IMG/VR virus record: IMGVR_UViG_3300031566_000095
Source: a virus
DNA: 44,494 nucleotides
Direction: 5' to 3' (one strand)
The translations under genes and the position numbers were made by a program. Position 1 is the first letter of the stretch. Every line of letters begins with the position of its first letter. The notes under the pieces were generated by a model. It had not been told where the DNA came from. It saw only the letters and a list, made by a program, of their open reading frames with translations, and made no database searches. Positions 5,341 to 42,578 of the stretch are shown one piece after another.

Positions 5341-5466
5341 TCAATAATTCCGCCTGCTACCCCGGCCCTTGCAGGATCGGCACGTGTTCTGTTTGCCTCT
5401 CGTCGTCGCCGTGGTGGTGTACCGGGCACGGCTACTGCACATTCAGGGTTATTTCATCGGGCCCAA

Positions 5467-5538
5467 TAGCGGGGGCCGGATTCGAACCGGCGTCCTCCTG
5501 GTTATGAGCCAGGCGTGTAGCCGCTACACTACCCCGCG
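5467..5538 (-). tRNA. tRNA-Met (anticodon CAT), initiator-like acceptor end
   Basis: Gene strand: CGCGGGGTAGTGTAGCGGCTACACGCCTGGCTCATAACCAGGAGGACGCCGGTTCGAATCCGGCCCCCGCTA. Folds as a cloverleaf by hand (7/4/5/5 bp stems, TTCGAAT T-loop). No encoded CCA. Confidence 0.85.
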
Positions 5539-5542
5539 ATAA

Positions 5543-27954: not shown

Positions 27955-29459
27955 TAGTCTTTCCCTCCGTTGGATTGCGGAGACTGTTTTTGTGGCGTCA
28001 GGACTATGCCGCTGTCGCGGATCGTTTCTTCCTCCTTCACCCGCTCCGGCCAGACCTCCTCGGCCCAGTCCAGCCCGTCCTGCCGGGCGACGATCTCCGT
28101 CCGCGTCGTCGTGCCGTTTTCGAGATGAATCTTGTCGGCCTGGGCCTCGCGGTACGGATCGACGTAAGGCCATCGCTTCAGGTAGATCTGATGGGCCGCC
28201 CAATCGTCACGCTCCTTGAGCTTCCCGCGGTCGATGAGCTGACCGATTTTCCAGAGCCACAACCGCCGCACCAGGGGTCTCACCACCAGTTCCTGCTCGT
28301 CGCGCCAGAAGGCCCGCGCTTCATTGTAGGCGAATCGCCCGTTCATAAACGTCGCGTGGCTGAAGTCGCCCGTAGTCAGCATCAACGGCAGGCACAGCGG
28401 GCCACCGACGAACATCAACATTCTCATCACGAACGGATCGAACGCCGCGGCCGGCCGGGCCGCTCCGATTGCCTCATAACTTTCACCCACCTCGGCATCG
28501 ATCAGAGTGCCGGGTTGAATTTTCACTTTCTCTCGATTAAAATCATCTTTCTGATTCGATCCCATTTCGCTCGCCGGTATCCCCCCGAGCCCGCTAAAAG
28601 CCTTCGCGTCATACGTTTTTGCCACTATCGGGAAGCAGGCATTGATTTTCGCGGCGACCAACTCGGCCTCAATATAATTGAACAAGTAATCGATATAGGG
28701 AACGGCGCTGGTCAGCTTGGGCTCACCCCGGGACTGATCGAACCGTTCCGGATCGAACATATGATGGACCCGTTCGGCAGACCGGCAATGCCAATCATGG
28801 GGCTGGATATAACCCCATTTGTTTGGCTTGCCTAAAAAATAACCAACGATGCGGGTAGTCTCTTTGTCGAAGACCACACCGTTACTGATCGTATAACGTT
28901 TTGGATCGAGTTTATCCTCGGGAATTTTTGCACCATAAGGTGTGCCGCAGCATTCACCTTGTAATGCTTCCGGACCATAATCGTGAAACAGAGTAAAGAC
29001 ATCGCCATCCTGAATGTAGCGGTAATAACTCTTATGGATATAGGCATGAAAATTGAACCGGCCCGTGACGTCGCAGGGCACATCGATCATCTCGGCCTTG
29101 ACCGCCTGCTCGGCGGCCTCGTTCCATCCCTTATCGGCCGTGCGAGCCTGGATCCGCGTCGAGGTCCCGACGACGTTCGTGGCGATCTTGCGAAACAGCC
29201 CCTTGACTAATGGATTGTTGGAAGACAAATCTCGGGCGATCTGACGTAAATCATCGAGCGTCCTCTCACTCAAGTCCGCATCGCCTGCGCGCGGACCCGC
29301 CTTTCGTTTCGGACGCAATCGGTCTTTATCGAGGACATCATATTTCAAGCGACTGGCCTGGCGCTGGACGACCAGGTCGGGCGAAAGAACGCTGAGCGGA
29401 CGATCGATCCATTCTGACATCCACCGCCAAAAACCGCTACGTTTCCACTCTCGGATCAT
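27954..29459 (-). CDS. Portal protein (lambda-type)
   Basis: 501 aa. Position after terminase and gpW. LRQIARDLSSNNPLVKGLFRKIATNVVG resembles lambda-family portals. Confidence 0.85.
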   Translation of the reverse strand: MIREWKRSGFWRWMSEWIDRPLSVLSPDLVVQRQASRLKYDVLDKDRLRPKRKAGPRAGDADLSERTLDDLRQIARDLSSNNPLVKGLFRKIATNVVGTSTRIQARTADKGWNEAAEQAVKAEMIDVPCDVTGRFNFHAYIHKSYYRYIQDGDVFTLFHDYGPEALQGECCGTPYGAKIPEDKLDPKRYTISNGVVFDKETTRIVGYFLGKPNKWGYIQPHDWHCRSAERVHHMFDPERFDQSRGEPKLTSAVPYIDYLFNYIEAELVAAKINACFPIVAKTYDAKAFSGLGGIPASEMGSNQKDDFNREKVKIQPGTLIDAEVGESYEAIGAARPAAAFDPFVMRMLMFVGGPLCLPLMLTTGDFSHATFMNGRFAYNEARAFWRDEQELVVRPLVRRLWLWKIGQLIDRGKLKERDDWAAHQIYLKRWPYVDPYREAQADKIHLENGTTTRTEIVARQDGLDWAEEVWPERVKEEETIRDSGIVLTPQKQSPQSNGGKD

Positions 29460-35051: not shown

Positions 35052-35216
35052 TCAGATTTTCCAGATACGAGGCCGTATCTCGCGCCAGTGTTCCGATTTA
35101 CGCATTCTCAGTACCCAACGGCAGACTTGGCAGCAGTAGCCTTCGTCTTTGTGAAATTCGAGGCAAGTGCAGTTGCAGCCACAATGTGGACAATGGATGT
35201 ATTTCTGTTCAGTCAT
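35052..35216 (-). CDS. Cys-rich micro-protein (54 aa), not in the ORF track
   Basis: Hand translation: MTEQKYIHCPHCGCNCTCLEFHKDEGYCCQVCRWVLRMRKSEHWREIRPRIWKI. ATGA overlap with the upstream gene. Confidence 0.5.
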   Translation of the reverse strand: MTEQKYIHCPHCGCNCTCLEFHKDEGYCCQVCRWVLRMRKSEHWREIRPRIWKI

Positions 35217-36436
35217 TCTTTCTCGCCTTTCACGGCCCGCTCAATCTCCAAGTCTGCTAGCGATTTGCCGCAAATCTTGCAGATGACAACCCGATCCGAT
35301 GTCAAATGAGCCTCGATGTGTTGGTAAAATCGCTCATACCTCTCCAACTCCGCGATCCGCTCGACCTGGGCCAGAATCTTATCCTCTTGCTCGATGCAGA
35401 GGATCCCGCCGCTTTCGGTCTCGCAATCCGTGCGACTTCGCAATCGCTTGTTCACGGCAATCAGGCGGACAATACTTTTGTTGCGTCGATTCAAGATGTC
35501 GTTGAAATCAGCAATGTCTTTTTTGTTCGCTTCGGTCAGGCGATCAGTCTGCGCATTCAAGTCATTGGCACCACAGTCACATTCTCCGGCATACCAATCA
35601 CAGCCGGGAAGATGTTTCATGCGTATGTTCTTGTCTTTGCGTGTCCCTCGCGTGAAATCGGGCCGCTTCTCAAGCTCTGCAATCCGCTCGGCCTGGGTAT
35701 TGAGTTTGGTTCGGAGTTCTTTCATTTCACGTAACACAACATCTATGTAATAGTTTAACCTTGCGACCTCCGCGGTCAGGGTCTTCTTCTCGGCGTTCAG
35801 GCTTTTTACTTTTGCATAATTCCGGGCGTTTTGGTCCCTCGTCTCGGAGTCAATCCGTCGCATCGTAGCGATCCGCTCGGTCAGGGCCTTGTTCTCCTCC
35901 GCTAATCCAGTCGCCAGCTTTTTGTAAAGCCGTTGCGATGCTGACGCAGGTTGTTGTGCGTTGGCAAGTTCGGTGGTCAGGCGGTCGATACTTTTGTTGC
36001 GTCGATTCAAGATGTCGTTGAAATCAGCGATGTCTTTTTTGTTCTCTTTTTTTAGCCTCTCGATCTCTCCTCGTGCCACACAGGCATCATTTTCAAGTTG
36101 CACCTTATCGGCGTTCAGTTCTGCGATCCGCTCCTCTTTAGCTTGGAGTTTGGCTTGCAGTTTCCCAACCCCTTTATGTGCATCGTGGCAGTAGTCTGCA
36201 TGTATATCCGTCACCTTTTCGTTTTCAACAGTCAGGGTCTTGTTCTCGGCCACCAGTTTGTCATGAGCGTTCCAGCAATGGACAAGTCTCTCCGCGTCGG
36301 CTTTGTCATTCAAGCCACGAGACATAGTTGCAATAATCATCTGGCCCCGGCCTATCCACCGAGATATTAGTCGGTCATCGTCCCATTTCGTTTCTTTGAC
36401 TTCTAATGGCCCTTCTGTGTGTTTCGCTTCGCTCAT
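35213..36436 (-). CDS. Long coiled-coil protein with internal duplication (407 aa)
   Basis: Heptad-rich sequence. KKDIADFNDILNRRNKSI occurs twice. Start trimmed to 36436 (SD AGGAGAA). AT-richer block. Confidence 0.7.
   Translation of the reverse strand: MSEAKHTEGPLEVKETKWDDDRLISRWIGRGQMIIATMSRGLNDKADAERLVHCWNAHDKLVAENKTLTVENEKVTDIHADYCHDAHKGVGKLQAKLQAKEERIAELNADKVQLENDACVARGEIERLKKENKKDIADFNDILNRRNKSIDRLTTELANAQQPASASQRLYKKLATGLAEENKALTERIATMRRIDSETRDQNARNYAKVKSLNAEKKTLTAEVARLNYYIDVVLREMKELRTKLNTQAERIAELEKRPDFTRGTRKDKNIRMKHLPGCDWYAGECDCGANDLNAQTDRLTEANKKDIADFNDILNRRNKSIVRLIAVNKRLRSRTDCETESGGILCIEQEDKILAQVERIAELERYERFYQHIEAHLTSDRVVICKICGKSLADLEIERAVKGEKE
35461..35527. repeat. 67-nt intragenic direct repeat, copy 1
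   Basis: Near-identical to 35977..36043; the 56-nt core has 1 mismatch. Confidence 0.9.
35977..36043. repeat. 67-nt intragenic direct repeat, copy 2
   Basis: Near-identical to 35461..35527. Confidence 0.9.
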
Positions 36437-36945
36437 TTCGTTTCTCCTATCAAAACAACCTTTCTGACAATCTTTTCCGGCGGCCATTCCAGCTCAACGC
36501 CGATGATCTTCATAGTGGCCGTGACGTCCACGCCCAGGGCCTCCGGCCGGTACGTCACGTACAACCCGCCCGCGATCCTGTTCGGACCGAAGAGGTTCAC
36601 GGCGCCATAGGCGGCTACGCGATCCTCCAGTTTCGATTCGACGCGGCCCTGCCAGTAGAGGCAGCATTCCGCCTGTCTTTTCGACCATCGCGGATGCCGG
36701 GCCCACATCCGTTGGCGATGCGCTTCCAGGTCGTACTCCGCCCATTTGACGAGAATCGCTTTGCTGCAATCGATCACCGCGTCGAACATCGGCGCCGACG
36801 GCGGGCAGCCTTCCTGCCGGCCGAAATTCGGACAGCCCTTCGGGTGACCGGGATAGGGCCGCTGGCAGAGCAGCCTGACCGATGGATTGAGCACCACGTG
36901 CCTGCCCGCCAGCCGGTAATCGCAGATCTTTATCCCGTCGCTCAT
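36433..36945 (-). CDS. Cys-rich, possibly metal-binding protein (170 aa)
   Basis: CQRPYPGHPKGCPNFGRQEGCPP motif. ATGA overlaps at both ends. Confidence 0.65.
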   Translation of the reverse strand: MSDGIKICDYRLAGRHVVLNPSVRLLCQRPYPGHPKGCPNFGRQEGCPPSAPMFDAVIDCSKAILVKWAEYDLEAHRQRMWARHPRWSKRQAECCLYWQGRVESKLEDRVAAYGAVNLFGPNRIAGGLYVTYRPEALGVDVTATMKIIGVELEWPPEKIVRKVVLIGETK

Positions 36946-37196: not shown

Positions 37197-37771
37197 GCTA
37201 TCCCCTGCTTTGCCGCCCCGCGCCCTTGCTTTGCTCTGCCTTTGCCATGTCACGCCTTTGCCAGGCTCGGCATTGCCTTGCTTTGCCTTTGCTTTGCGTC
37301 GCTCTGCCTCGCCATTGCCGTGCTCGGCATTGCTGTGCCTTGCCTTTGCTGAGCATTGCGGGGCCCGGCCTTGCCTTGGCCGAGCCGCGCGCTGCTTTGC
37401 CTATGCCTCGCTAAGCGAAGCTTTGCGTTGCGCCACCATGCGTTGCCTTTGCTTTGCCGGGCGGCGCCGCGCTAAGCAGTGCATCGCCCTTGCCATGCGA
37501 AGCATCGCCCTGCTGCGCCTTTGCATTGCTGCGCCGTGCTGAGCCTTTGCCAAGCTAAACAAGGCGGCGCCGGGCCCCGCCCTTGCTACGCCAAGCGTCG
37601 CACCGCCGTTGCTGTGCGCTGCAACGCTGTGCCATGCAACGCCTTTGCTATGCCTCGCATCGCGTCGCATAGCCTTGGCCACGCGATGCGATGCCTTGCC
37701 TTTGCCCTGCAGTGCGGCGCACCGCTCAGCCTTTGCTCCGCGCCGCGGAGCCAGACGGCGCCCCGCCTTTG
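37197..37771 (-). repeat. Pentamer-phased array A, poor in A on the plus strand (TGCNN plus GCCTTTGC octamers)
   Basis: Read directly. About 11 GCCTTTGC copies (37238, 37254, 37285, 37342, 37445, 37517, 37543, 37641, 37698, 37729, 37765). Very few A on the plus strand. All frames open. Confidence 0.9.
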
Positions 37772-38395
37772 CTATTCACTTGTCAATTCGCGCCAGGTAA
37801 ATCGCCCGTAGCTCGCATTTCGCCATTGGCCGAGACCCCGCAAGGCCCCGTAATTGAGCCATTGCTTGATAAAGTCTGCCAACTTTGGATTGAACCATGA
37901 AATCTCGACCGTAATGGTTGCCCCTGCCGGGATAACTTCGGAACGAGCGAGGGCGATTCGTTCACCGCGCATTGTCTGGCCGCGTAGAGGCCGTTCGAGG
38001 AATTTCAACGGCTGACCATTGAGGCCCTCTAAGACAATTCGCCTGGGCGTGACAAAAACAGCCTCGTCAATCGTGCGCCGGAATAGATACTCCGTAAGGC
38101 GAGCTTTCTTCAACTCCTCTTTGGTCAACCGTTCGGTGTGAATCATGGCGGCACACGCTTCTTTGAAGAATCCCTTGACTTGATAATCCCACAGCATGGG
38201 CTTGCCGTCCTTGCCGTCCTGATTCCGGGCAAAAATCGTGCTGGACTTTTCCACTGTCTCATCAATGGGGACAGCATCCGATTCTTCCTGACTACTTCCG
38301 TCCGGGTGTTTGCTGATGATAAACTCCTCGGCAATTTCTTTGTTGCCAGACAGAGTACCCAGCAATGGTTCTGTAAATGTAATTCTGACCTTCAT
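37772..38395 (-). CDS. Unknown-function 207-aa protein flanked by the two arrays
   Basis: Strong SD (AAAGGAAG, 7 nt from the ATG) and normal amino-acid composition. N-terminus MKVRITFTEPLLGTLSGN. C-terminal Gly-rich motif GLGQWRNASYGRF. Confidence 0.8.
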   Translation of the reverse strand: MKVRITFTEPLLGTLSGNKEIAEEFIISKHPDGSSQEESDAVPIDETVEKSSTIFARNQDGKDGKPMLWDYQVKGFFKEACAAMIHTERLTKEELKKARLTEYLFRRTIDEAVFVTPRRIVLEGLNGQPLKFLERPLRGQTMRGERIALARSEVIPAGATITVEISWFNPKLADFIKQWLNYGALRGLGQWRNASYGRFTWRELTSE

Positions 38396-38435
38396 AATGG
38401 CACTTCCTTTCGTAAATTGTTTGAATTACTTTTTT

Positions 38436-38458
38436 CTCCGGACCCCAAAGGTCCGGAG
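38436..38458 (-). other. 9-bp GC-rich hairpin between array B and the 207-aa gene
   Basis: ctccggacc-ccaaa-ggtccggag. The flanking A/T runs are on the wrong side for a canonical terminator. Confidence 0.6.
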
Positions 38459-38476
38459 CACTCATCCAAAAACATC

Positions 38477-39300
38477 CTGCTTTGCCTTTGCCCCGCTGCG
38501 CAACGCCAAACATCGCCGTTGCCAAGCCCGGCGCCGCCGCGCTTCGCCTTTGCCTTACTCTGCTTTGCCATGCTTTGCCTTTGCGGTGCGTCGCGGCGCT
38601 TTGCCTCGCCTTTGCCCTGCTATGCTCTGCGTTGCTCGGCCTTTGCGGTGCGCCGCGACGCGACGCCACGCCACGCCTTTACCCTGCCCAGCGACGCCGC
38701 GCTGCGCCTTTGCATTGCTGTGCCTTTGCCCTGCGACGCCATGCTTCGCCTTTGCCGCGCCTTGCACGGCATTGCCATGCCATTACTTTGCCTTTGCCGT
38801 GCCACGCCAGGCACTGCCGCGCTGCGCCTAGCCTTGGCCACGCGAAGCCAAGCATGGCCAGGCCTTTGCCTTGCTGCACCTTTGCGCTGCCCCGCTGTGC
38901 GGCGCGCTGCCTTTGCTTTGCTCGGCTTTGCCATGCAGAGCCTTCGCCAGGCCCAACCACGCCGCGCCGTTGCTGTGCGCTGCCCTGCTTTGCCTTTGCA
39001 TTGCGTTGCTCTGCTTTGCCTTTGCATTGCGTTGCTCTGCTTTGCCTTTGCATTGCTCTGCCTCGCGTTGCTCTGCTTTGCCTTGCCTCGCCTCTGCGAA
39101 GCGATGCAGCGCTGCACCTTGCCTCGCCTTTGCGAAGCCCCGCGCCGCCATGCCCCACAGAGCCTATGCTTGGCGAAGCTGCGCTGTGCACTGCCCTGCC
39201 TGTGCTTGGCCCTGCGGTGCCATGCCAGGCATCGCCTTTGCAAAGCGCTGCGCTGCCGGGCGCAGCCGAGCGCTGCGTTGCCTTTGCCTCGCGCCGTGCC
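38477..39300 (-). repeat. Pentamer-phased array B, poor in A on the plus strand (TGCNN plus GCCTTTGC octamers)
   Basis: About 17 GCCTTTGC copies, five of them 31 bp apart (38546-38706). 38581-38640 contains a single A. Six overlapping ORFs of 107-389 aa across all six frames. Confidence 0.9.
38986..39056 (-). repeat. Exact 26-bp tandem duplication inside array B
   Basis: tgctttgcctttgcattgcgttgctc at 38986-39011 and 39012-39037, plus 19 nt of a third copy. Confidence 0.95.
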
Positions 39301-41777: not shown

Positions 41778-42578
41778 CTACCCGGTTTTGTGGGCCGCCT
41801 GCAACAGCCCCTCGATCAATAATTGCCTGACGGCTTGTTCGACCGTCTCGGCGGCGGTCCTTTTATCCATCAGGATGTCCAGCTTCGTATTCCACCGTAC
41901 ATATTTCACCTGGCCTTTTTCGAACCCGTGCTCCGCGAAAGACTTGATCGCCACCGCGCTGCAAGGAATCGCTCCTTTGTCCTTATCGAGGTCGAAGTGC
42001 GTGGGCGCCGCGAACGCAGGCTCTGACCCAAGGTCTTTTCGCGTCCCCTCGATAAATATCCGGCGCCGCCGCTGCGGAACGCCGTAACTGGCCGCGTCCA
42101 TCAGGTTGAACCTCACGATATAGCCCTTGCCTTCAAGATCGCCGAGCAGCTCGATAAAAAACTCCTTGAAACTCAATACCCCCGGCACGTTCTCGATGAC
42201 AAAGCAGCACGGCTTGATCTCCCCGACGAGCCGGATGAAATGCCACATCATTTGCGAGCGAGGGTCATCGACGCTGCGGTTCTTATTGCTCCAGGTAAAG
42301 CCCTGGCAGGGTGGGCCGCCGCTCAAAATATCCAGATCGCCCTTCTCGATGCGGGCGGCGGCCAGAATCTCCCGGCCCGAGATCTTCGACAAATCCGCTT
42401 TGATGATTCTGGCCCGGGGGAAATATCGGTTCCTGTTCGCCCCGAGCGTGGCAAGACAGAACTTGTCAATCTCGACCAGGCCGACCACGTCGATACCGGC
42501 CTGCTGGAGGCCCAGGGCCATCCCGCCGGCGCCGGCAAACAGTTCGATGGCCTTTAATTTACGTTTATTCATGTTCAT
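41778..42578 (-). CDS. DNA (cytosine-5) methyltransferase
   Basis: Motif I FAGAGG, motif IV GGPPCQGF, motif VI ENV. Confidence 0.9.
   Translation of the reverse strand: MNMNKRKLKAIELFAGAGGMALGLQQAGIDVVGLVEIDKFCLATLGANRNRYFPRARIIKADLSKISGREILAAARIEKGDLDILSGGPPCQGFTWSNKNRSVDDPRSQMMWHFIRLVGEIKPCCFVIENVPGVLSFKEFFIELLGDLEGKGYIVRFNLMDAASYGVPQRRRRIFIEGTRKDLGSEPAFAAPTHFDLDKDKGAIPCSAVAIKSFAEHGFEKGQVKYVRWNTKLDILMDKRTAAETVEQAVRQLLIEGLLQAAHKTG

What the first reader, a model, noticed from the sequence alone, without database searches (positions are those of the whole stretch)
37197..39300. Two long pentamer-phased arrays with a recurring GCCTTTGC octamer, flanking a single gene
Blocks of about 575 bp (37197-37771) and about 825 bp (38477-39300) lie on either side of one well-formed gene. 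Both have the same polarity. The plus strand has almost no A (one A in 38581-38640) and is built from degenerate TGCNN units (attgc gttgc tctgc tttgc), which read GCANN on the gene strand. Superimposed is the octamer GCCTTTGC (GCAAAGGC on the gene strand). I count about 11 and about 17 copies, often 26 or 31 bp apart (38546, 38577, 38608, 38639, 38706). The blocks share 16-18-nt segments in a different order: agccttggccacgcga at 37671 and 38830, and gccgttgctgtgcgctgc at 37605 and 38966. So they are related but not a simple duplication. There is no repeat/spacer architecture and no SD. Apart from one 9-bp inverted repeat in array A (about 37656-37695) I saw little self-complementarity. I know of no described phage element like this. 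Hypotheses: (a) an iteron- or centromere-like array for a DNA binder, since 31 bp is about three helical turns; (b) an unstructured purine-rich RNA that loads an oligomeric protein in a 5-nt register, as B. subtilis TRAP does on GAG/UAG triplets spaced 2-3 nt apart; (c) a decoy or sponge.
Basis: partly seen in the sequence, partly recalled or inferred. Interest (0 to 1): 0.9.

Follow-up and report, generated by a model that had tools for sequence, protein, structure and literature searches.

The report
Phage VIPR guide-RNA arrays flanking vipr
The two odd five-base-periodic blocks are most likely guide-RNA arrays of a VIPR system, a phage-borne, CRISPR-related RNA-guided DNA-binding system first described in 2026 preprints, and the gene between them encodes its Cas7-like protein.

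Summary
Both blocks are tiled by GC-NNN pentamers. A GCAAAG hexamer interrupts them every 5-7 units, giving a sharp 5.17-nt period (31/6) and no codon periodicity.

The 207-aa gene between the blocks folds as a minimal Cas7-like RAMP. In 80 related loci (78 viral contigs plus two metagenome contigs), 63 carry the same kind of array directly beside the homologous gene, always in the same polarity. A search with the array pattern alone recovers the gene in 21 of 22 hits.

This matches VIPR systems (Doudna lab preprints, April 2026): a Vipr RAMP plus vrRNAs made of pentanucleotide repeats. This locus is a non-canonical form:
- The repeat is GC-NNN ("YNNNG"), not GGY-NN.
- Guides are short, 4-8 units, and are delimited by GCAANG hexamers.
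- There is no conserved 3' tail and no vap gene.

Across the family, stop-codon depletion in exactly two frames shows that guides copy coding sequences at 3 nt per unit, with unit position 5 on the wobble base. One guide matches the 3' end of a polA gene in other viral contigs at 23 of 24 bases.

Verdict: a new member of a very recently described kind. Function is inferred, not shown.

The parts
38476..39299 (-). Upstream repeat array B (putative vrRNA array). It holds 133 pentamers (127 of them GC-NNN) and 29 hexamers, mostly GCAAAG. About 23 guide blocks have 4 or more pentamers.
   Evidence: Parse. Lag-5 autocorrelation 0.55. Spectral peak at 5.18 nt. No period-3 power: 0.84 against 2.4-26 in genes.
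37772..38395 (-). vipr-like gene: a 207-aa minimal Cas7-like RAMP with an RRM core, a beta-hairpin thumb at about residues 131-155, and a C-terminal G-loop GLGQWRNASYGRF.
   Evidence: AF2 pLDDT 85.8. All top 50 Foldseek PDB hits are Csm3, type VII Cas7, Cmr4 or Csf2. Profile hit to type VII Cas7. No Pfam, PHROG, NCBIfam or PADLOC hit. 1,898 clusters at 50% identity in metagenomes.
37199..37772 (-). Downstream repeat array A (putative vrRNA array). It holds 94 pentamers and 19 hexamers, with about 17 guide blocks of 4 or more pentamers. Its first hexamer overlaps the vipr stop codon by 1 nt. It ends at the start codon of the next ORF.
   Evidence: Parse. Lag-5 autocorrelation 0.52. Spectral peak at 5.16 nt. 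Period-3 power 0.43.
38396..38475 (-). Spacer between array B and vipr. It contains a 10-bp-stem hairpin (38436-38460) and the vipr ribosome-binding site (GAAAGGAAG).
   Evidence: Fold z-score -3.1. No comparable hairpin in three related loci folded (L017, L009, L039), so it is not a family-wide vrRNA tail.
39242..39281 (-). Guide block B1: eight pentamers between two GCAAAG hexamers. Its concatenated NNN reads AACAGCTCGTGCCCGAGCAGCTTT. It has a candidate natural target at the 3' end of a family-A DNA polymerase gene in other viral contigs.
   Evidence: IMG/VR scan. The match to L090 is 23 of 24 bases, including 7 of 8 'skipped' bases. The skipped bases fall on codon wobble positions of polA on the opposite strand, and the six homologous sites vary at those positions. 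Null hits reach at most 4-5 of 8.
39134..39163 (-). Guide block of six pentamers (NNN = TCTGGGATGGGCGGGTTC). It has a suggestive match to a ribonucleotide reductase gene on one of the polA-bearing contigs.
   Evidence: Five of six units are perfect (15 nt) in L107/L322, with the same antisense, wobble-aligned geometry. No such hit for guides of 6 or more units in 3.65 Mb of background. The site is not conserved in RNR relatives. This match is post hoc and weak.
39000..39051 (-). Two perfect tandem copies of one 26-nt module (GCAAAG plus four pentamers). The copy number differs between samples.
   Evidence: TRF reports period 26. There are two copies in the window and in the JGI contig, and one copy in three ENA assemblies.

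Best explanation
The locus is a VIPR-type (Viral Interference Programmable Repeat) system.

Inferred mechanism:
- The minus strand is transcribed through array B, the vipr gene and array A.
- The 207-aa Cas7-like Vipr protein polymerises on the array RNA, one protomer per 5-nt unit. It holds the invariant G-C of each unit and displays the following two bases.
- Blocks of 4-8 units, delimited by a non-pairing GCAANG hexamer, act as guides. They read double-stranded DNA non-contiguously, at 3 nt of target per 5-nt unit. Unit positions 3-4 pair with the target. Position 5 lies opposite the skipped base, which is the codon wobble position.
- By analogy with the characterised SUSP1 and P. fulva systems, binding silences genes of competing phages. 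One guide here probably targets the polA gene of another phage group.

Shown here:
- The array anatomy.
- The RAMP fold of the protein.
- The two-way genomic association of the gene and the arrays.
- Non-coding, unit-wise and block-wise evolution of the arrays.
- The codon-phased composition of the variable bases.

Inferred, not shown:
- Transcription and processing of the arrays.
- Filament formation.
- DNA binding and silencing.
For: (1) Protein. The model is confident (pLDDT 85.8). All 50 best PDB fold matches are Cas7-family backbone subunits (E down to 8e-7, TM about 0.5). A profile hits the type VII Cas7 G-loop region. The G-loop G-x-G-[Q/D]-W-R...GRF is shared with SUSP1 Vipr. I located that gene in KT454805.2 at 28474-29061, flanked by GGTNN repeats. 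In SUSP1, W178 and R179 contact G2 and Y3. Both residues are invariant here (W191, R192). The G1 readers H17 and D177 are replaced by T14 and Q190, which fits a repeat whose only invariant bases are G-C.

(2) Association. Of 80 loci with a homologue, 63 have a strong 5.17-nt array directly upstream (44), downstream (18) or on both sides (1). The arrays are T-poor on the gene strand at every locus. A scan with the array pattern alone found 22 loci, and 21 of them carry an array plus an adjacent vipr-like ORF. No other window gene within 3 kb of vipr has a homologue within 3 kb of the gene at any other locus.

(3) The arrays are not coding. They show no period-3 signal. One 26-nt module is polymorphic between samples. 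Indels between related arrays are 5 nt (88 cases), 1 nt (72), 26 nt (13) and 31 nt (5), but 3 nt only 5 times.

(4) Guide code. In 1,516 non-redundant unit pairs from 122 arrays, sense stop codons are depleted only in frame (3,4,5): 29 observed against 57 expected, P = 3e-5. Reverse-complement stops are depleted mainly in frame (5,3',4'): 19 against 35, P = 0.002. The third frame is a near-null control: sense stops 1.05, reverse-complement stops 0.81, P = 0.049.

(5) Candidate target. Guide B1 matches polA at 16 of 16 code bases and 7 of 8 skipped bases, is wobble-aligned, and the match stops at both hexamers.

(6) No self-target in the window, as the VIPR paper reports for its systems.

(7) Literature. 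The VIPR paper lists 'YNNNG' repeats and staggered arrays among its variants.
Against: - Sequence homology to the characterised SUSP1 Vipr is weak. hhalign in global mode gives 48% probability and E = 2.9e-5, and only the G-loop aligns with confidence.
- The canonical GGY/NN motif, the 9-16 repeats per vrRNA and the structured 3' tail are all absent.
- No vap gene is recognisable in the window.
- No promoter or terminator was detected, and no expression data exist.
- Only one guide of about 40 has a convincing target. My estimate of its chance probability is about 0.005-0.02 after correcting for about 15 independent hits, and the third-position test was devised after seeing the data.
- An exact 24-mer was not found in the metagenome collection.
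- Array A RNA is predicted to fold more stably than shuffled versions (z = -4.2), which a protein-coated single strand would not need.
- I could not see the preprint's figures, so I cannot say which of its seven types this is.
Confidence: 0.85

Rival explanations
1. The arrays act as double-stranded DNA. They would be a phased series of binding sites (iteron, centromere or nucleoid-like) for a DNA-binding protein such as the ParB-like or wHTH protein of the phage. The 5.17-bp spacing would be half a helical turn.
For: The period of 5.17 bp equals half of 10.33 bp and is phase-coherent over 600-1,000 bp in all loci. A ParB-like gene lies 3.3 kb away.
Against: None of the window's proteins within 3 kb of the gene, including the wHTH/DnaD-like and HNH proteins, has a homologue within 3 kb of the gene in any of the 80 related loci, whereas the RAMP gene always does. 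The ParB-like gene itself lies outside that test. Polarity relative to the RAMP gene is invariant. There is no 10.33-bp component. The non-integer mean comes from a discrete, sequence-conserved hexamer rather than from drifting spacing. The variable bases carry a codon-phased signature that a binding-site array would not have.
Confidence: 0.04
2. The RAMP and its repeat RNA act as a decoy or anti-defence device. For example, they might mimic a Cas7-crRNA backbone to poison host class 1 CRISPR complexes, or titrate a host RNA-binding factor, rather than guide DNA recognition.
For: The protein is a phage-encoded Cas7-like protein without other cas genes. The RNA is long and highly repetitive. 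RNA anti-CRISPRs that mimic repeats are known (my own knowledge, not tested here).
Against: A decoy needs no information in its variable positions. Yet those positions look like gapped copies of coding sequence in two specific frames, and one block matches a foreign polA gene. Characterised relatives act by RNA-guided DNA binding.
Confidence: 0.06
3. The arrays encode low-complexity, basic (Ala/Lys/Arg/Gln/Gly-rich) proteins. Gene callers annotate 220-231-aa ORFs there.
For: The gene strand is T-poor, so long ORFs are open in several frames. A 231-aa ORF is called in public contigs.
Against: There is no period-3 signal. The periodicity is 5.17 nt. A 26-nt indel between otherwise identical genomes changes the called ORF from 231 to 220 aa. 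Indels of 5, 26 and 31 nt dominate over 3 nt. The gene-strand array ORFs have almost no homologues in the other loci: one of five ORFs, in one locus, with the low-complexity filter on.
Confidence: 0.01
4. The blocks are an assembly artefact: repeat collapse or a chimera.
For: Many homologues sit on contigs of about 1 kb, as if assemblies break at the arrays.
Against: Six contigs from three pipelines (ENA/MEGAHIT, JGI, Logan) and different samples agree base for base, apart from one 26-nt module.
Confidence: 0.005

Closest known systems
VIPR systems (Vipr RAMP + vrRNA), as characterised for Escherichia phage SUSP1 and a P. fulva prophage (bioRxiv 10.64898/2026.04.26.720920 and 10.64898/2026.04.26.720927)
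   Same: - The locus is phage-borne.
- A single small RAMP of about 20 kDa, with RRM, thumb and G-loop, stands outside any CRISPR-cas context.
- The gene is flanked on the same strand by long 'intergenic' tracts of tandem pentanucleotide repeats, with conserved bases alternating with variable ones.
- Target reading is 3 nt per 5-nt unit, with the unread base on the codon wobble position and targets on either strand.
- There is no self-targeting.
- The likely target is another phage.
   Different: - The repeat core is G-C followed by three variable bases (the 'YNNNG' class in the paper's Methods), not GGY-NN.
- The residues that read G1 in SUSP1 (H17, D177) are T and Q here.
- SUSP1 has a few discrete vrRNA genes of about 100 nt, each with 9-16 repeats and a pseudoknotted tail. 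This locus has two continuous arrays of 575 and 825 nt (about 110 and 160 units).
- The arrays are divided into about 40 blocks of 4-8 units by a conserved GCAANG hexamer, and there is no conserved tail.
- No vap gene is present in the window.
- Unit position 5 is variable and tends to copy the target's wobble base.
- Protein sequence similarity to SUSP1 Vipr is limited to the G-loop.
Class 1 CRISPR-Cas backbone (Cas7/Csm3/Cmr4/Csf2 filament on crRNA)
   Same: The protein fold and G-loop match, and the logic of one RAMP protomer per fixed number of guide nucleotides with periodic unpaired positions is shared. The best structural matches are Csm3 and type VII Cas7.
   Different: There are no CRISPR repeats or spacers, no cas1/cas2, and no Cas5, Cas6, Cas10, Cas11 or nuclease genes. 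The register is 5 nt rather than 6 nt. The guide is interrupted every two bases rather than every five. No curated Cas model matches the protein.
B. subtilis TRAP on GAG/UAG repeats
   Same: A protein oligomer reads a short motif repeated at a fixed spacing on an otherwise unstructured RNA.
   Different: TRAP is an 11-mer ring of a different fold. It binds 11 triplets to regulate one operon, and the spacer bases carry no information. Here the protein is a RAMP, the arrays hold over 100 units, and the variable bases carry a code.

Membership tests
VIPR system | The Vipr protein is a small (about 20 kDa), single-RRM RAMP with a thumb and a glycine-rich loop, encoded outside a CRISPR-cas locus. 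| tested here: met
   The protein is 207 aa. The AF2 model (pLDDT 85.8) has an RRM core, a beta-hairpin at about residues 131-155 and a C-terminal G-loop. The top 50 PDB fold hits are all Cas7-family. No cas genes or CRISPR array are in the window, which is a phage.
VIPR system | Demonstrable homology to an experimentally characterised Vipr (SUSP1). | tested here: inconclusive
   Only the G-loop aligns with confidence: GLGQWR..GRF against GVGDWR..GRF. Global hhalign with a 109-sequence profile gives E = 2.9e-5 at 48% probability. The paper needed 8 PSI-BLAST iterations and structure searches to link Viprs.
VIPR system | Tandem pentanucleotide repeats flank vipr on the gene strand, with conserved positions alternating with variable ones. 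| tested here: met
   The association holds in both directions.
VIPR system | The canonical repeat consensus is YNNGG (GGY/NN). | tested here: not met
   The unit is G-C-N-N-N: position 3 is A 0.44-0.54 and G 0.26-0.33, position 4 is nearly uniform, and position 5 is G 0.22-0.38. This corresponds to the alternative 'YNNNG' repeats that the paper's Methods list for loci lacking YNNGG.
VIPR system | Each vrRNA has 9-16 repeats followed by an invariant structured 3' tail. | tested here: not met
   Blocks of 4-8 pentamers are separated only by a GCAANG hexamer. The hairpin after array B was not seen in three relatives folded. No Rfam family or ribozyme was found. The paper mentions tail-less 'staggered arrays', but I could not view that figure.
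VIPR system | Recognition follows a non-contiguous code: two guide bases pair, one target base is skipped, the skipped base usually falls on the codon wobble position, and targets lie on either strand. | tested here: met
   Statistical test: stop codons are depleted only in frame (3,4,5) in the sense orientation (0.51, P = 3e-5), and chiefly in frame (5,3',4') in the antisense orientation (0.54, P = 0.002). The third frame is near null: 1.05, and 0.81 at P = 0.049. One instance: guide B1 against polA, 16 of 16 code bases, with skipped bases on the wobble position. No biochemical test was possible.
VIPR system | Natural targets lie in competing mobile elements, and there is no self-targeting. 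| tested here: inconclusive
   There is no self-target in the window. One probable target (polA) and one weak target (RNR) lie on foreign viral contigs. About 38 other guides have no identified target.
VIPR system | An accessory vap gene lies next to vipr (typical but not universal). | tested here: not met
   No neighbour of the window's vipr is conserved in the 80 related loci. In 43 of the related loci a conserved ORF of about 125-130 aa starts, at the median, 3 nt after vipr (the example read, in L017, is Cys-rich). It is absent from the window.
VIPR system | The vrRNA is expressed, co-purifies with Vipr as a helical filament, and represses targeted genes. | not testable with these tools
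   This needs RNA-seq, pull-down, cryo-EM and reporter assays.
CRISPR-Cas (class 1) | A CRISPR repeat-spacer array plus cas1/cas2 and a multi-subunit effector. | tested here: not met
   There are no such repeats and no Cas family hits in Pfam, NCBIfam or PADLOC.
Iteron / partition-site array | Repeats co-occur with a cognate DNA-binding initiator or ParB, with no fixed polarity requirement, and are spaced in phase with the helical repeat. | tested here: not met
   The arrays track the RAMP gene only. Their polarity is fixed. There is no 10.33-bp power.

The most novel reading that the evidence does not exclude
This clade may represent a distinct vrRNA architecture that the VIPR preprints do not describe in their text.

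- The arrays would be miniature 'repeat-spacer' arrays. A 6-nt GCAANG handle recurs about every six units, which is the number of Vipr protomers per helical turn in the published binary filament.
- The handle would delimit one-turn guides of 4-8 units. About 40 guides would be packed into two arrays in one 44-kb phage.
- The slot that is an invariant G in canonical vrRNAs would be free and would copy the target's wobble base.

This would imply either dicing into mini-guides of about 31 nt or one very long segmented filament. It would also imply a way of generating guides by copying target codons.
Probability: 0.3. Interest if true: 0.65.

Novelty: new member of a known kind. Interest (0 to 1): 0.5.

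Why it matters
VIPR is a months-old discovery. It is a phage-borne RAMP-RNA system, proposed to predate CRISPR, that reads DNA through a gapped code.

This window adds an uncharacterised and very large clade: 1,898 protein clusters at 50% identity. Members come from sediment Planctomycetota-associated contigs, human-gut phages and, more distantly (26-28% identity), viruses of thermophilic Aquificae.

The clade differs from the characterised systems in several ways:
- a different repeat core;
- no accessory gene in this window;
- arrays about ten times longer than the characterised ones.

The stop-codon test recovers the 'skip the wobble base' rule from array sequences alone. It also fixes which two bases of the unit are the code, which makes target prediction and reprogramming of this clade testable. 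The hexamer punctuation suggests how many short guides can be packed without tails or processing sites.

If the polA match is real, this phage represses replication genes of a competitor.

Tried and rejected
- BLASTN of the 4.5-kb region against INPHARED phages: no match.
- Pfam, PHROGs, NCBIfam and PADLOC on the 207-aa protein: nothing.
- Rfam on the region (E up to 1), and on the window plus 13 loci at gathering score: only tRNAs, no ribozymes.
- Sigma-70 promoter and intrinsic terminator scan: nothing on the gene strand.
- tblastn of the protein against phages: human-gut and thermophile-virus homologues, but not SUSP1.
- Self-target search with registers 3-4, 4-5 and last-2, skips 0-3, and 8-12 units: no excess.
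- Cross-target search of all family guides against 660 kb of vipr neighbourhoods. The first version had a counting bug. After the fix, only trivial array-to-array matches appeared at skip 3.
- IMG/VR scan of block B1 in register 4-5: 72 hits, none extending.
- Reading through hexamers with target steps of 2-5: no extension. I concluded that hexamers end guides.
I used this as an empirical null.
- All window guides against the polA-family loci and against 0.96 Mb around RNR homologues: only B1 and the weak RNR hit.
- Exact 24-mers of two guides in metagenome contigs: none.
- Substitution rates per unit position in related arrays did not separate 'code' from 'scaffold' positions, apart from the near-invariant G.
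- The idea that 5.17 nt reflects DNA helical phasing was considered and dropped. The parse showed a discrete conserved hexamer, and no 10.33-nt power was found.
Full report

Yes. On the + strand the two blocks are A-poor (9.7% and 8.6%, against 19% for the window). Identity autocorrelation at lag 5 is 0.52 and 0.55, against about 0.25 in the intervening gene and in a control region. Further maxima fall at 10, 15/16, 21, 26, 31 and 36.

The Fourier peak of GC positions is sharp, at 5.16-5.18 nt. Nowhere else in the 44 kb does the sliding power at that period exceed 0.61, against 3.9-4.5 in the blocks. GCCTTTGC occurs 30 times in the window, 28 of them in the blocks.

Six public contigs of the same phage come from three assembly pipelines. 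The JGI and two Logan contigs reproduce the locus exactly, as far as each contig reaches. The three ENA contigs differ from the window only by one 26-nt indel. This is not an assembly artefact.

**2. Anatomy**

All genes in this part of the window are on the minus strand, so I read the blocks on that strand. A dynamic-programming parse tiles array B (38476-39299) with 133 pentamers and 29 hexamers. It tiles array A (37199-37772) with 94 pentamers and 19 hexamers.

- Nearly all pentamers (127 of 133 and 87 of 94) start with G-C.
- Position 3 is purine-biased (A 0.44-0.50, G 0.30-0.33). Position 4 is close to uniform. Position 5 is mildly G-rich.
- The hexamers are a distinct, conserved element. 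They are GCAAAG in most cases: positions 3-5 are A at 74-95%, and position 6 is always G.
- Hexamers recur every 5-7 units.

There is no period-3 power in the arrays (0.43 and 0.84, against 2.4-26 in genes). There is also no 10.33-nt component.

Array A starts on the last base of the stop codon of the 207-aa gene and ends at the start codon of the next ORF. Array B ends 80 nt upstream of the gene. That spacer holds a 10-bp-stem hairpin and the ribosome-binding site.

**3. The flanked gene**

The 207-aa protein has no Pfam, PHROG, NCBIfam or PADLOC match. It does have 1,204 relatives in the word-indexed metagenome search and 1,898 clusters at 50% identity in the exhaustive one.

An AlphaFold model built from 55 homologues is confident (pLDDT 85.8, pTM 0.81). 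It shows an RRM core, a long beta-hairpin at about residues 131-155 and a C-terminal glycine-rich loop.

All 50 best Foldseek matches in the PDB are Cas7-family backbone subunits: Csm3, type VII Cas7, Cmr4 and Csf2 (E down to 8e-7, TM about 0.5). A sequence profile also hits the type VII Cas7 G-loop region (E = 0.002). In BFVD the closest viral model (44% identity) is already labelled 'Cas system-associated RAMP superfamily protein'.

The window itself is a tailed phage. It encodes a gpA-type terminase, a ParB-like protein, a C5 methyltransferase and an HNH endonuclease, with no cas genes.

**4. Gene and arrays belong together**

I collected 78 IMG/VR loci and two metagenome contigs that encode a homologue (36-72% identity). 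Of these 80 loci, 63 have a strong 5.17-nt array directly abutting the gene: 44 upstream, 18 downstream and 1 on both sides. The array is always T-poor on the gene strand. Most of the rest show a weaker array. The spectral peak lies between 5.14 and 5.23 nt in all 15 related arrays tested, as in the two window arrays.

The hexamer is family-wide. In 77 arrays its consensus is GCAANG (position 6 is G in 94%), and the spacing mode is 5-6 units.

In the reverse test I scanned 2.9 million viral contigs with the array pattern alone (GCAAAGGC, four GCNNN, then GCAAAGGC). This returned 22 loci. Twenty-one have an array and a vipr-like ORF (E of 1e-64 or better) directly beside it on the same strand.

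No other window protein within 3 kb of the gene has a homologue within 3 kb of the gene at any of the related loci.

**5. The arrays are not protein-coding**

- Period 3 is absent.
- The only difference between samples of this phage is the gain or loss of exactly one 26-nt module, a hexamer plus four pentamers. This changes the ORF that gene callers place there from 231 to 220 aa.
- Among 245 pairs of related arrays (not independent), indels are 5 nt (88 cases), 1 nt (72), 26 nt (13) and 31 nt (5), but 3 nt only 5 times.
- The leading G of each unit is almost never substituted (0.4%, against 4-7% at the other positions).

**6. What is known**

A literature search found two preprints from April-June 2026: bioRxiv 10.64898/2026.04.26.720920 and 10.64898/2026.04.26.720927. 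They describe VIPR (Viral Interference Programmable Repeat) systems.

- The systems are mostly phage-borne.
- A minimal RAMP, 'Vipr' (about 20 kDa), is flanked by intergenic vrRNA genes made of 9-16 YNNGG repeats plus a structured tail.
- One Vipr protomer binds each repeat and sequesters GGY. The NN dinucleotides pair with dsDNA, skipping one target base per unit. The skipped base usually falls on the codon wobble position, and targets lie on either strand.
- The outcome is transcriptional silencing of competing phages.
- The binary filament has six protomers per turn.
- The Methods mention alternative repeats (NNNGG, YNNNG, NNNNG), 'staggered' arrays and ribozyme-interspersed arrays, and seven types. 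The figures are not available to me.

I located the SUSP1 locus myself in KT454805.2. The vipr gene is at 28474-29061 (minus strand), vap1 is at 28031-28471, and GGTNN repeats lie in both flanking intergenic regions.

**7. Membership**

The locus meets these defining features:
- a small stand-alone RAMP;
- flanking same-strand pentanucleotide arrays;
- a phage context;
- no self-targeting.

It departs from the canonical description in these ways:
- The conserved core is G-C with three variable bases, which is the paper's 'YNNNG' class.
- Blocks hold 4-8 units rather than 9-16.
- No conserved tail was found: the hairpin after array B was not seen in three relatives I folded.
- There are no ribozymes.
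- No vap gene is present. A conserved ORF of about 125-130 aa starts, at the median, 3 nt after vipr in 43 of the related loci (the example I read, in L017, is Cys-rich), but it is absent here.

Sequence similarity to SUSP1 Vipr is confident only at the G-loop: GLGQWR...GRF against GVGDWR...GRF. Global hhalign gives E = 2.9e-5 at 48% probability.

The G-loop correspondence is informative. In SUSP1, W178 stacks on G2 and R179 contacts Y3, while H17 and D177 read G1. Here W191 and R192 are invariant, and the putative G1 readers are T14 and Q190. This fits a unit whose only fixed bases are G2-Y3 = G-C. This mapping is an inference from a short alignment.

**8. Testing the code without known targets**

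If guides are gapped copies of coding sequence, with 3 nt of target per unit and the unread base on the wobble position, then stop codons should be missing in one particular frame for sense guides and in another for antisense guides.

I tested 1,516 non-redundant unit pairs from 122 arrays (smaller sets agree).

| Frame | Sense stops (TAA/TAG/TGA) | Reverse-complement stops (TTA/CTA/TCA) |
|---|---|---|
| (pos3, pos4, pos5) | 29 observed vs 57.2 expected; ratio 0.51; P = 3e-5 | ratio 0.88 |
| (pos5, next pos3, next pos4) | ratio 1.10 | 19 observed vs 35.3 expected; ratio 0.54; P = 0.002 |
| (pos4, pos5, next pos3), control | ratio 1.05 | ratio 0.81; P = 0.049 |

TGA and TAA are the two most depleted of all 64 triplets.

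This double, frame-specific signature fixes positions 3-4 as the code and position 5 as the wobble slot. That register is the same one the G-loop mapping suggests. It also implies that most guides copy protein-coding DNA, very roughly half in each orientation.

**9. A candidate natural target**

I scanned IMG/VR with the longest hexamer-free block (B1, window 39281-39242, eight pentamers) in register 3-4 with a one-base skip. This gave 20 hits, about the chance number. However, six of them are one homologous site.

- The best hit (L090) matches 23 of 24 bases, including 7 of 8 of the unspecified bases. A second matches 6 of 8.
- The 14 unrelated hits reach at most 4 of 8. The 120 hits of another block reach at most 5 of 8.
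- The site is the last codons (...KLLGHELF...) of a family-A DNA polymerase gene on the opposite strand.
- The skipped positions are its wobble positions, and the six homologues differ at exactly those positions.
- The match stops at both flanking hexamers. This is why I take GCAANG to be a non-pairing delimiter.

My rough estimate of the chance probability is 0.005-0.02 after correcting for about 15 independent hits. The third-base criterion was devised after looking at the data.

A second guide (39163-39134) matches a ribonucleotide reductase gene on one of the same contigs in five of six units (15 nt), with the same geometry. Guides of 6 or more units give no such hit in 3.65 Mb of background. 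However, the site is not conserved in relatives, and I regard this match as weak.

No other guide found a target.

**10. Conclusion**

The finding is a VIPR-type system. Its arrays are arrays of short guides. Hypotheses (a) and (c) are not supported.

What remains open:
- whether the arrays are diced at the hexamers or coated as one segmented filament;
- whether the coincidence of about six units per block with six protomers per filament turn is meaningful;
- whether position 5 pairs with the target;
- what the other guides target.

Because the class was described in 2026 and its authors list YNNNG repeats and staggered arrays, I rate this as a new member of a known kind. There is about a 0.3 chance that the hexamer-delimited architecture is a variant not yet described.

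Noticed in passing
window 5466-5539 (-): A tRNA-Met (CAT anticodon) gene lies in the phage genome. It is the only tRNA in the window.
   Followed up: no
window 35213-36487 (-): A 424-aa coiled-coil protein carries an internal near-exact duplication: NKKDIADFNDILNRRNKSI occurs twice. It has weak PHROG similarity to tape-measure and hemolysin families.
   Followed up: no
window 36433-36945 (-): A 170-aa protein has a DUF2284 (predicted metal-binding) N-terminal match, which is unusual in a phage. It lies two genes downstream of vipr, and no homologue was found within 3 kb of vipr in the related loci.
   Followed up: partly
window 38436-38460 (-): A near-perfect 10-bp hairpin (CUCCGGACCU / loop UUG / GGGUCCGGAG) followed by an A-run lies between array B and vipr. 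The fold z-score is -3.1, but relatives lack it. It could be a processing or stability element specific to this phage.
   Followed up: partly
window 39000-39051 (-); L079, L080, L082: Exactly one 26-nt guide module (hexamer plus four pentamers) is present twice in the window and in a JGI contig, but once in three ENA assemblies of the same phage. This is module-level gain or loss of a guide.
   Followed up: yes
L017 4563-4940 and 42 other loci: In the related loci, a conserved ORF of about 125-130 aa starts, at the median, 3 nt after vipr on the same strand; the L017 example (125 aa) is Cys-rich. It is a candidate accessory (vap-like) gene with no Pfam match, and it is absent from the window.
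   Followed up: partly
P0125 (458 aa), P0135 (432 aa): Two representatives match the Vipr profile in two stretches and are twice the normal length. They may be tandem-fused double Vipr proteins.
   Followed up: no
L196 3461-5175; L189 and L197: One viral contig carries a 1.7-kb array next to vipr, about 330 units. Two others have arrays on both sides of the gene, like the window.
   Followed up: no
KP282676.1 / NC_028651.1 15502-15981; BK013345.1 25567-26043: Distant homologues (26-28% identity) of the protein occur in Hydrogenobaculum phage 1 and, at a chance-level E-value (0.5), in Aquificae Conch Spring virus. The family may therefore reach viruses of thermophiles.
   Followed up: no
window 41778-42578 (-): The C5 cytosine methyltransferase ORF (266 aa) matches only positions 2-181 of the 324-position Pfam model. 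It may be truncated, or its target-recognition and C-terminal part may be divergent. I wondered whether it acts on the GC-dense arrays, but did not test this.
   Followed up: no
one search hit list: Many homologues of the 207-aa protein sit on contigs of only about 0.9-1.5 kb. This suggests that short-read assemblies commonly break at the flanking arrays, so such arrays are probably under-represented in assembled metagenomes.
   Followed up: no
window 37197-37771 (-): Array A RNA is predicted to fold more stably than shuffled versions (z = -4.2), owing to local GC-rich inverted repeats such as 37647-37699. How this squares with a protein-coated single strand is unexplained.
   Followed up: no
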